From Escherichia coli (GTDB lineage Bacteria; Pseudomonadota; Gammaproteobacteria; Enterobacterales; Enterobacteriaceae), in the NCBI RefSeq assembly GCF_003334255.1, contig NZ_QOWU01000118.1: a DNA stretch of 3,612 nucleotides; one strand, 5' to 3'. The stretch's first letter is position 1. Each line of letters starts with the position of its first letter. Shown here one piece after another: positions 1 to 1,000 of this stretch. The translations under genes were made by a program, and so were the position numbers. Under the pieces are notes generated by a model, which had not been told where the DNA came from, did no database searches, and worked only from the letters and a program-made list of their open reading frames with translations.

Positions 1-101
1 TCTTCGTCAAAAACAACGGGGCGACCATCAAACAGCGTCGCCCCGTGTTCATGCTGCTCGAGTGCATCCAGCACTGCGGCACGAATGTCAGTGTGTTTCA
101 T
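1..101 (-). CDS. U: Tail terminator protein (lambda gpU-like), 5' portion only; continues beyond the start of the window
   Basis: Minus-strand ATG at 101-99 followed by an open frame to the window edge, encoding MKHTDIRAAVLDALEQHEHGATLFDGRPVVFDE, which matches the lambda gpU N-terminus as I recall it. The ATG overlaps the Z stop in the sequence ATGA. Confidence 0.85.
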   Translation of the reverse strand, partial: MKHTDIRAAVLDALEQHEHGATLFDGRPVVFDE

Positions 102-631
102 CGTTTTATTGCAATCCTCAGTTGTTGTTTCAGCGCGTATGCCAGTTCTTTAGGCAGGCGTTCACGCCGGATACGGTCAACATTCTCATCAAATGCCTGT
201 TTCAGTGGGGCCGCCATCGGGATTTTCACCACATCAATGGGGTAACGGTTTTTCCCGGCCACACGCTGCATGACATGCCAGCGACCATTTTTTAATCGCT
301 GAATAAATGCCCGCTGATACCGATGCTGACCGGCTTTAAGTATGCTGTTCGGGCGACGCCCCAGCATCCTGATCCCCAGCTTAATCACAGGGAGATCACC
401 GCGGTTAACGATAATTCTGGCATTCGGATTTCTGACCGTCGCCCGTTTCAGTCTGGACCGTTCCTTTACCAGTTTCCGTCTCACCCTGGTTTCCCGGGCA
501 ACCTGTGACGAAGACTGATTAATCGCCGTTGTGGCCACGCGGTTAATCGTCATTGCTGAAGCCGCCGGAATGGCGTTTTTACGAACCCGGCTCAGATTAT
601 CAATCGCCTGATCAAGCCCTTTTATCGCCAT
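98..631 (-). CDS. Z: Tail completion / head-tail joining protein (lambda gpZ-like), 177 aa
   Basis: Translation MAIKGL.QA..NLSR........A.AM.INRVA..AI.QS.SQVARET.VRRKLVKER.RLKRATV.NP.ARI.VNRGDLPVIKLG...FIQ.LKNGRWHVMQRVAGKNRYPIDVVKIPMA.PL resembles lambda gpZ. Position between FII and U. Its stop overlaps the U start (ATGA). Confidence 0.88.
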   Translation of the reverse strand: MAIKGLDQAIDNLSRVRKNAIPAASAMTINRVATTAINQSSSQVARETRVRRKLVKERSRLKRATVRNPNARIIVNRGDLPVIKLGIRMLGRRPNSILKAGQHRYQRAFIQRLKNGRWHVMQRVAGKNRYPIDVVKIPMAAPLKQAFDENVDRIRRERLPKELAYALKQQLRIAIKR

Positions 632-646
632 AATTTCACCCTGCGT

Positions 647-1000
647 TTATCGTCGCCGGTTAACAGCGGGTGGTTGCCCACGGTTGAGCCAGAGATAACA
701 GCTTCCCCCGTCATCCGGAGAAACACGATCCACCCAGAACATCTCGCCGTTAATGGTCAGCGTGTCACCACGCCGCACGGCACGCACCGTATCCGTCCGC
801 ACAAATAATGACGGGCTGCTTCCTTCAATACGGACCCCGCCACCGGCAAAACCCAGCGACTCCGGATCGTCAAAAACCCCCTGAACTTCGCCGCCACGTT
901 GTGCTCCGGAGGTGAACTGCGCACGGATCCCCATCACTTCAACGATCGTACTGTCCACCCCGGCGAGGGCAGCATCAAAGGCATTCTGAAAATCACGCAT
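647..1000 (-). CDS. FII: Head-tail joining / head completion protein (lambda gpFII-like), 117 aa
   Basis: Translation MRDFQNAFDAA...GVFDDPE...GGVRIEGSSPSLFVRTD.VR..RRGDTLTI....FWVDRVSPDDGGSCYLWL.RG.PPAVNRRR closely matches lambda gpFII as I recall it, at the same length (117 aa). Start overlaps the FI stop by 8 nt. Confidence 0.92.
   Translation of the reverse strand: MRDFQNAFDAALAGVDSTIVEVMGIRAQFTSGAQRGGEVQGVFDDPESLGFAGGGVRIEGSSPSLFVRTDTVRAVRRGDTLTINGEMFWVDRVSPDDGGSCYLWLNRGQPPAVNRRR

What the first reader, a model, noticed from the sequence alone, without database searches (positions are those of the whole stretch)
98..1000. Overlapping stop/start junctions (ATGA at Z/U, 8-nt overlap at FI/FII) indicating translational coupling
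The Z stop and U start share the tetranucleotide ATGA (positions 101-98). The FII ATG (1000-998) lies 8 nt inside the end of FI, in a different frame (tATGCGTGA). Such overlaps are typical of stoichiometrically co-regulated virion-assembly genes. The Z/U overlap matches lambda. The FI/FII overlap differs from lambda, where I recall a short gap, which suggests the FI C-terminus here is divergent.
Basis: partly seen in the sequence, partly recalled or inferred. Interest (0 to 1): 0.2.

Follow-up and report, generated by a model that had tools for sequence, protein, structure and literature searches.

The report
Ordinary overlapping phage gene junctions
Two pairs of neighbouring head-tail assembly genes in a phage-21-like E. 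coli prophage really do overlap by 4 and 8 bases, but this layout is common, was already annotated in phage 21 and lambda, and only suggests linked translation.

Summary
Both overlaps are present exactly as described, on the minus strand. Z stop and U start share ATGA at 101-98. The FII ATG (1000-998) lies 8 nt inside FI, as ATGCGTGA (1000-993).

The window is the C/Nu3-D-E-FI-FII-Z-U block of a lambdoid E. coli prophage with a phage-21-type head module. It is 98% identical to PhiR12 phages and about 89% to phage 21.

The -4 Z/U junction is shared with lambda, phage 21, N15 and phi80, and occurs in 141 of 142 surveyed loci. The -8 FI/FII junction occurs in all 83 phage-21-type loci and was already annotated in the phage 21 record M81255. 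Lambda-type phages (80/80), N15 and phi80 instead have a 10-11 nt spacer carrying a strong Shine-Dalgarno sequence. The overlap therefore looks derived, arising when that spacer was lost.

The out-of-frame TGA in FII codons 2-3 exists in every lineage, so FI simply ends there.

Translational coupling by termination-reinitiation is plausible. The FII ribosome-binding site is weak, and -4 and -8 are spacings enriched in prokaryotes. It is untested here. In the closest phage, 28 of 71 same-strand junctions overlap.

Verdict: real, ordinary and already known.

The parts
98..101 (-). ATGA: Z stop (TGA 100-98) overlapping U start (ATG 101-99), spacing -4
   Evidence: The same junction is annotated in relatives, in lambda, and in N15 and phi80. 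It occurs in 141/142 surveyed loci.
993..1000 (-). ATGCGTGA: FII start (ATG 1000-998) 8 nt inside FI (stop TGA 995-993), spacing -8
   Evidence: Annotated identically in PhiR12_2_star, E. coli AR_0086, phage 21 OL657228 and M81255. It occurs in 83/83 phage-21-type loci.
993..1376 (-). FI (DNA-packaging chaperone), 127 aa, ATG 1376 preceded by AGGAGG
   Evidence: phrog_92 E=9e-47. Annotated as FI in relatives. Anti-SD dG is -10.3 kcal/mol. It is 26% identical to lambda FI.
647..1000 (-). FII (head-tail joining / head closure Hc1), 117 aa
   Evidence: NCBIfam NF049848 scores 53.2 bits against a cutoff of 25. phrog_82 E=5e-51. It is 91% identical to phage 21 FII and 70% to lambda FII, collinear from residue 1.
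632..646 (-). 15-nt FII/Z spacer acgcagggtgaaatt with a weak SD-like GGGTG
   Evidence: anti-SD dG -3.9. Lambda and phage 21 have an 11-nt spacer with AAGGGGG (dG -10.7).
98..631 (-). Z (tail completion protein), 177 aa
   Evidence: phrog_27 E=5e-63. About 67-68% identical to phage 21 and lambda Z. It lacks 15 residues of the basic central segment.
1..101 (-). U (tail terminator), 5' part only, running off the window
   Evidence: phrog_37 E=5e-10 for the first 33 aa. Annotated as U in relatives.
1007..1013 (-). GGAACGG, weak SD-like element for FII at -13 to -7, lying inside FI codons (Gly-Thr-Ala)
   Evidence: sequence. The corresponding GGA/GGAA is marked as a putative RBS in both phage 21 records. 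GGAAYGG is kept in three FI allele classes. Anti-SD dG is only -4.1.

Best explanation
These are two ordinary compact gene junctions in the late (virion-assembly) operon of a lambdoid E. coli prophage. Its head and head-completion genes are of the phage 21 type.

Shown: both overlaps exist. Both flanking reading frames are the real genes. The Z/U ATGA junction is ancestral to the whole lambda/21/N15/phi80 group. The FI/FII -8 junction is specific to the phage-21-type module. Lambda, N15 and phi80 have a 10-11 nt spacer with a strong Shine-Dalgarno sequence at the same place.

Inferred: the -8 overlap arose when the FI stop codon and spacer were lost. FI then ran on to the out-of-frame TGA that FII codons 2-3 (xxT GAT) provide in every lineage. 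The natural recombinant phage D2 shows that a frame change at this point produces that result.

Inferred mechanism: ribosomes finishing Z or FI terminate within a few nucleotides of the next start codon, and some of them re-initiate there (termination-reinitiation). U and FII synthesis would then be partly tied to translation of the upstream gene. The poorly placed or weak SD-like elements (GAGGA 12-14 nt upstream of U; GGAACGG upstream of FII) would contribute only modest independent initiation. The degree of coupling is not established.
For: Sequence and frames.

Identity of the genes: and the annotations.

Conservation: -8 occurs in 83/83 loci that carry at least three FI allele classes (40-100% aa identity) next to near-identical FII. 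The +11 spacer with GGGAGG and a GTG start occurs in 80/80 lambda-type loci. -4 occurs in 141/142 Z/U junctions.

Outgroups: N15, mEp237 and HK225 have +10 and phi80 has +11. All have Z/U at -4.

Anti-SD pairing energy for FII: lambda -10.3, N15 -10.8, phi80 -9.4, against window -4.1 and phage 21 -4.9 kcal/mol. For U the pairing is weak or mis-spaced in window, phage 21, N15 and phi80 (-3.2 to -6.3, often 12 nt from the ATG).

The octamer NTGxxTGA is invariant in all 166 FII starts, whether or not FI ends there. Phage D2 (phage 21 FI joined to lambda FII) has the -8 overlap at GTGGCTGA.

Literature: -4, -1 and -8 (NTGNNTGA) are the enriched spacings in prokaryotes, and coupling is most efficient at short distances (PMC12548453). 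In 13 of 14 native overlapping pairs tested, including E. coli pairs, translation was strictly coupled (PMC6728339 abstract).
Against: No experiment or expression data for these junctions could be retrieved.

Weak SD is not diagnostic in this operon. The genes for the abundant capsid proteins D and E also have modest SDs (-6.3 and -5.6), and Z has -3.9.

The U initiation region is A-rich and mostly unpaired (mean P(unpaired) 0.75), so independent initiation is entirely possible.

No RBS-sequestering structure is predicted at either junction, so the 'RNA unfolding' form of coupling has no support.

One study summarised in the review found that coupling falls as the overlap grows beyond -4.

The review also notes that the abundance of -4 spacing probably reflects how easily it evolves.

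Invariance of the octamer is explained by FII coding constraints and low divergence, not necessarily by selection for the overlap.

From memory, not retrieved: Sampson et al. 1988 (PNAS) attributed the widely different yields of lambda late proteins to gene-specific translation initiation rates. That argues against simple 1:1 coupling.
Confidence: 0.6

Rival explanations
1. The overlaps are neutral by-products of genome compaction and of how overlaps arise: a stop codon is lost and the frame extends to the next out-of-frame stop. FII and U would then be initiated essentially independently by free 30S subunits, with no functionally meaningful coupling.
For: 28 of 71 same-strand junctions in the closest phage overlap, 16 of them at -4. 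The TGA used by FI is present in all lineages for FII-coding reasons. The U start region is open and A-rich. D and E reach high yields with similarly modest SDs. The review says -4 abundance is probably due to ease of evolution, and simulations reproduce the overlap length distribution from stop/start codon loss (PMC3887535).
Against: 13 of 14 native overlapping pairs tested experimentally were strictly coupled. FII lost a strong SD exactly in the lineage where it overlaps FI. Z/U -4 is kept across lineages whose Z and U proteins have diverged considerably.
Confidence: 0.33
2. The overlap at FI/FII is an annotation artefact, and FII really starts at a downstream in-frame codon (ATG 934-932, codon 23).
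For: An in-frame ATG exists at 934-932.
Against: FII aligns from residue 1 with lambda, N15, phi80 and phage 21 FII, with M1, D3, F4, N6, F8 and D9 invariant. Residues 4-24 form an N-terminal helix resolved in the lambda virion structure (PMC10721106). No SD-like sequence precedes codon 23 (cgatcgttgaagtgATG).
Confidence: 0.02
3. The 8-nt overlap is a recoding site that produces an FI-FII fusion by +1/-2 ribosomal frameshifting.
For: FII is in the +1 frame relative to FI, and some PHROG families look like fusions of neighbouring genes (phrog_2353, phrog_8274).
Against: There is no slippery heptamer or homopolymer run in CUGAAUAUGCGUGA. No stimulatory structure is predicted and there is no Rfam match. 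The spacer-type relatives have an in-frame stop and an untranslated gap at the same place.
Confidence: 0.01

Closest known systems
Phage 21 ORF1(FI)/gene 8(FII) junction (GenBank M81255; OL657228)
   Same: Same 8-nt overlap with the same octamer ATGCGTGA. It has the same weak GGA(A) element 10-13 nt upstream, annotated as a putative RBS. FII is 91% identical.
   Different: FI is a different allele, only 47% identical, and its last residues are GGMAVYA against HGTAEYA here. The downstream Z is lambda-like in phage 21 but a distinct, shorter allele here.
Lambda Z/U junction (NC_001416 8552-8555)
   Same: Same ATGA stop/start overlap between orthologous genes. The flanking sequence ...CTGAGGAT.G.AATAAA.CGATGAAACA is nearly the same.
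   Different: Lambda Z is 192 aa against 177 aa here. Lambda's SD-like pairing is computed as stronger (-9.6 against -5.9 kcal/mol).
Lambda / N15 / phi80 FI-FII junction
   Same: Orthologous genes in the same order. FII begins with NTG GCT/CGT GAT, which contains the same out-of-frame TGA.
   Different: There FI ends at its own TAA/TGA, followed by a 10-11 nt untranslated spacer with a strong SD (GGGAGG or AGGGGG; dG -9.4 to -10.8). Lambda uses a GTG start. Here there is no spacer, the SD is weak and the start is ATG.
Experimentally coupled overlapping pairs (E. coli and Haloferax pairs of Huber et al. 2019; phage f1 genes VII/IX)
   Same: Co-directional genes in one operon with -4 spacing.
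   Different: Coupling was measured there and has not been measured here. f1 VII/IX has a predicted inhibitory hairpin, and none is predicted here.

Membership tests
Lambda-like head-completion / tail-completion gene block (FI-FII-Z-U) | FII homologue (head-tail joining protein) | tested here: met
   NF049848 equivalog scores 53.2 bits against a cutoff of 25. phrog_82 E=5e-51. 70% identity to lambda FII over 117 aa.
Lambda-like head-completion / tail-completion gene block (FI-FII-Z-U) | FI, Z and U homologues in the lambda order and on one strand | tested here: met
   phrog_92, phrog_27 and phrog_37. The order E-FI-FII-Z-U is identical to lambda, phage 21, N15 and phi80.
Phage-21-type head module (as opposed to lambda-type) | Nucleotide similarity of C/Nu3, shp(D), E and FII to phage 21 rather than lambda | tested here: met
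   Megablast to phage 21 gives 89-91% over 91% of the window. Lambda matches only the last ~310 nt of the query, in Z/U, at 84%.
Translationally coupled gene pair (termination-reinitiation) | Co-directional neighbours with stop and start overlapping or within a few nt | tested here: met
   Spacing is -4 and -8. Both are among the spacings enriched in prokaryotes.
Translationally coupled gene pair (termination-reinitiation) | Downstream translation depends on translation of the upstream ORF | not testable with these tools
   This needs reporter fusions with a displaced upstream stop codon, or ribosome profiling. No such data for lambda or phage 21 could be retrieved.
Translationally coupled gene pair (termination-reinitiation) | Little capacity for independent initiation (weak or absent SD, or occluded RBS) | tested here: inconclusive
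   The FII SD is weak (-4.1) and the U SD is mis-spaced (-5.9 at 12 nt). D, E and Z are similarly weak, and neither RBS is sequestered.
Programmed ribosomal frameshift site | Slippery sequence plus stimulatory element at the overlap | tested here: not met
   There is no slippery motif in CUGAAUAUGCGUGA, no Rfam hit and no stable local structure.

The most novel reading that the evidence does not exclude
The phage-21-type module may have replaced an ancestral, independently initiated FII (spacer plus strong SD, as in lambda, N15 and phi80) with an obligatorily FI-coupled FII. The two lambdoid lineages would then form a natural pair of alternative expression architectures for the same gene pair. 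The junction would also act as a preferred crossover point at which FI alleles are exchanged (at least three FI allele classes next to near-identical FII, plus the D2 hybrid).
Probability: 0.35. Interest if true: 0.2.

Novelty: already known. Interest (0 to 1): 0.07.

Why it matters
It matters little. The result confirms correct gene starts in a very common E. coli prophage module: 1543 of 5426 complete genomes carry a match covering at least 80% of the window. It also gives a tidy comparative example of how a short overlap arises, through loss of a stop codon and an SD-bearing spacer with termination at a pre-existing out-of-frame TGA. If coupling were shown, the lambda-type and phage-21-type FI/FII junctions would be a convenient natural pair for comparing SD-driven and reinitiation-driven expression. 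No open question depends on it.

Tried and rejected
1. Rfam scan of the whole window at E<=1 found no RNA family.

2. An RBS-occluding secondary structure, as in the RNA-unfolding model of coupling, was looked for. Pair-probability analysis shows the FII and U start regions are no more structured than other starts, and U is the most open.

3. I tested a downstream alternative FII start at codon 23 and rejected it on the basis of N-terminal conservation.

4. A frameshift fusion was rejected because there is no slippery site.

5. I tried using invariance of the octamer as evidence of selection for the overlap. This fails because the first 23 nt of FII are invariant anyway in the closely related set, and NTGxxTGA is equally invariant in lineages where FI does not end there.

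6. Literature searches for direct data on lambda late-gene coupling or per-gene ribosome profiling did not reach the key papers. Liu et al. 2013 and Sampson et al. 1988 are not held.

7. Tandem Repeats Finder found nothing at the DNA level.

Full report
**What is in the window.** All genes lie on the minus strand:
- the 3' part of C/Nu3, ending at 2898
- D/shp, 2861-2514
- E, 2456-1428
- FI, 1376-993
- FII, 1000-647
- Z, 631-98
- the first 33 codons of U, starting at 101

Family searches confirm the names. FII matches NF049848 at 53.2 bits against a cutoff of 25. FI matches phrog_92, FII phrog_82, Z phrog_27 and U phrog_37.

The DNA is 98-98.6% identical over its full length to the PhiR12 E. 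coli phages and 89-91% identical to phage 21. Lambda itself matches only the Z/U end. Matches covering at least 80% of the window occur in 1543 of 5426 complete E. coli genomes. The window is therefore a very common lambdoid prophage with a phage-21-type head module.

**Checking the observation.** Both junctions are exactly as described.
- For Z/U the sequence is aaaacgATGAaacac. The ATG of U is at 101-99 and the TGA of Z at 100-98.
- For FI/FII the sequence is ggctgaatATGCGTGAtttt. The ATG of FII is at 1000-998 and the TGA of FI at 995-993. This is an 8-nt overlap, and FII is in the +1 frame relative to FI.

Independent annotations of near-identical DNA give the same coordinates.

**Is the FII start right?** FII proteins of the window, phage 21, lambda, D2, N15 and phi80 are all 117 aa and collinear from residue 1. 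M1, D3, F4, N6, F8 and D9 are invariant. Residues 4-24 form a resolved N-terminal helix in the lambda virion (PMC10721106). The only downstream in-frame ATG (934-932) has no SD-like sequence.

**Comparative survey.** I fetched 80 IMG/VR loci with the window's FII and 80 with lambda's FII. I then located the junctions by tblastn and stop-codon scanning.
- All 83 phage-21-type loci have the -8 junction. They carry at least three FI allele classes (about 40-50%, 90% and 100% identical to the window's FI) next to FII that is at least 91% identical.
- All 80 lambda-type loci have an 11-nt spacer, taaCGGGAGGCGCTGTG. It carries a strong SD and a GTG start.
- The more distant relatives N15, mEp237 and HK225 have a 10-nt spacer and phi80 an 11-nt spacer, each with AGGGGG.
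- Z/U is -4 in 141 of 142 loci and in N15 and phi80. The one exception has an earlier nonsense codon in Z.

The spacer state is found in three separate lineages and the overlap in one. The overlap is therefore most simply the derived state, which is an inference. The phage 21 record M81255 ('Bacteriophage 21 head gene operon') already annotates ORF1 7599-7973 and gene 8 from 7966, with a putative RBS at 7953-7956. The feature is thus already on record.

**How the -8 overlap comes about.** FII codons 2-3 are CGT GAT (phage 21 type) or GCT GAT (lambda, N15, phi80). The octamer NTGxxTGA is present at all 166 FII starts examined, whether or not FI ends there. Phage D2 is a natural recombinant with phage 21 sequence up to ...CACACGTTGA and lambda sequence from CAATAACGGGAGG... 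onward. In D2 the lambda TAA is out of frame for the phage-21-type FI, which then terminates at GTGGCTGA. That again gives a -8 overlap. Once FI's own stop is lost or put out of frame, the pre-existing TGA captures it. FI C-termini still align end to end. The phage-21-type arrangement is therefore best described as loss of the stop-plus-spacer rather than a C-terminal extension. FI as a whole is highly divergent, at 26% identity to lambda FI and 47% to phage 21 FI.

**Does it indicate translational coupling?** Evidence in favour:
- -4, -1 and -8 are the enriched spacings, and short distances favour coupling (PMC12548453).
- In 13 of 14 native overlapping pairs tested, including five from E. 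coli, translation was strictly coupled (PMC6728339).
- FII has a strong anti-SD match in every spacer lineage (-9.4 to -10.8 kcal/mol) but only -4.1 in the window and -4.9 in phage 21.
- The SD-like element upstream of U is weak or 12 nt away in most lineages. A synonymous AGG to AGA change removes it in many loci.

Evidence against, or neutral:
- D, E and Z in the same window have equally modest SDs (-6.3, -5.6 and -3.9).
- The U start region is open, with P(unpaired) 0.75, and no occluding structure is predicted at either junction.
- One study found that coupling declines as the overlap grows beyond -4.
- The frequency of -4 is attributed largely to ease of origin.
- In the closest phage genome, 28 of 71 same-strand junctions overlap: 16 at -4, 2 at -8, 3 at -1 and 7 longer.
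- From memory only, Sampson et al. 1988 attributed lambda late-protein yields to gene-specific initiation rates.

I therefore rate partial coupling by termination-reinitiation as the most likely mechanism (about 0.6). Purely independent initiation is the main rival (about 0.33).

**'Stoichiometric co-regulation'.** gpFI is not among the proteins identified in the lambda virion. gpFII and gpU each form one hexameric ring, and gpZ is present but unresolved (PMC10721106). The pairs joined by overlaps (FI-FII, Z-U) are therefore not obviously 1:1 partners. The partners that contact each other, FII and U, are not adjacent.

**Verdict.** The feature is ordinary and already annotated in phage 21 and lambda records. 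The small added value is the clean split between spacer-plus-SD and -8-overlap architectures, and its likely origin.

Noticed in passing
window 1400-1420 (minus strand), between E stop (1428) and FI start (1376): GC-rich hairpin GCGGGGGCGAAATGCCCCCGT followed by a TCTTTTTT run, resembling an intrinsic terminator (dG -20.3 kcal/mol, z = -3.4). A hairpin sits at the same position after the major capsid gene in lambda. It is annotated as a rho-independent terminator in N15 and HK225. It presumably is read through by Q-modified polymerase, or it stabilises the upstream C-D-E message.
   Followed up: partly
window 2485-2506 (minus strand), between D/shp stop and E start: A second hairpin (TCAGGCCACCGCGTTGGCCTGA, dG -14.6, z = -2.6) with a weak T-rich tail, lying downstream of the decoration-protein gene.
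   Followed up: partly
window about 3024-3464 (minus strand), Nu3/C scaffold region: Three diverged tandem protein repeats of about 47-50 aa: ...IM/L..xEAKGxExxAxxLAxxxxMxVExARxILxxxP.... EAKG falls at residues 39, 89 and 136 of the ORF starting at 3542. The repeats are not detectable at the DNA level by TRF.
   Followed up: partly
window about 314-376 (minus strand), middle of Z: Z is 177 aa against 192 aa in lambda and phage 21. The arginine/lysine-rich central segment (NARVVLSRRRRRKKGQRSSLKGGG) is replaced by a shorter IRMLGRRPN. N15 and phi80 have intermediate lengths, so this loop is a variable region.
   Followed up: partly
window 1409 and 1424 (minus strand); L165 (phage D2) 795: In-frame upstream GTG (1424) and ATG (1409) extend the FI ORF into the terminator hairpin. 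The D2 record annotates the ATG in the hairpin loop as the FI start. The ATG at 1376 behind AGGAGG is the start used in other records, so the D2 call is probably an over-extension.
   Followed up: partly
loci L001-L084 and L165, FI 3' end / FII start: Mosaic joint. At least three FI allele classes (40-100% aa identity) abut near-identical FII, and similarity decays within about 15 nt upstream of the FII ATG. Phage D2 joins phage 21 FI to lambda FII at ...CACACGTTGA|CAATAACGGG.
   Followed up: partly
window 632-646 (minus strand), FII/Z spacer: The FII/Z spacer is 15 nt with a weak SD (dG -3.9). Lambda and phage 21 have 11 nt with AAGGGGG (dG -10.7). The Z allele and its ribosome-binding site travel together and differ from both reference phages.
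   Followed up: no
PHROG hits to window FI (993-1376) and Z (98-631): FI matches positions 361-477 of a 481-position 'major head protein' family (phrog_2353). Z matches positions 182-354 of a 354-position family (phrog_8274). This suggests that some phage records carry E-FI and (FII?)-Z fused or merged gene models.
   Followed up: no
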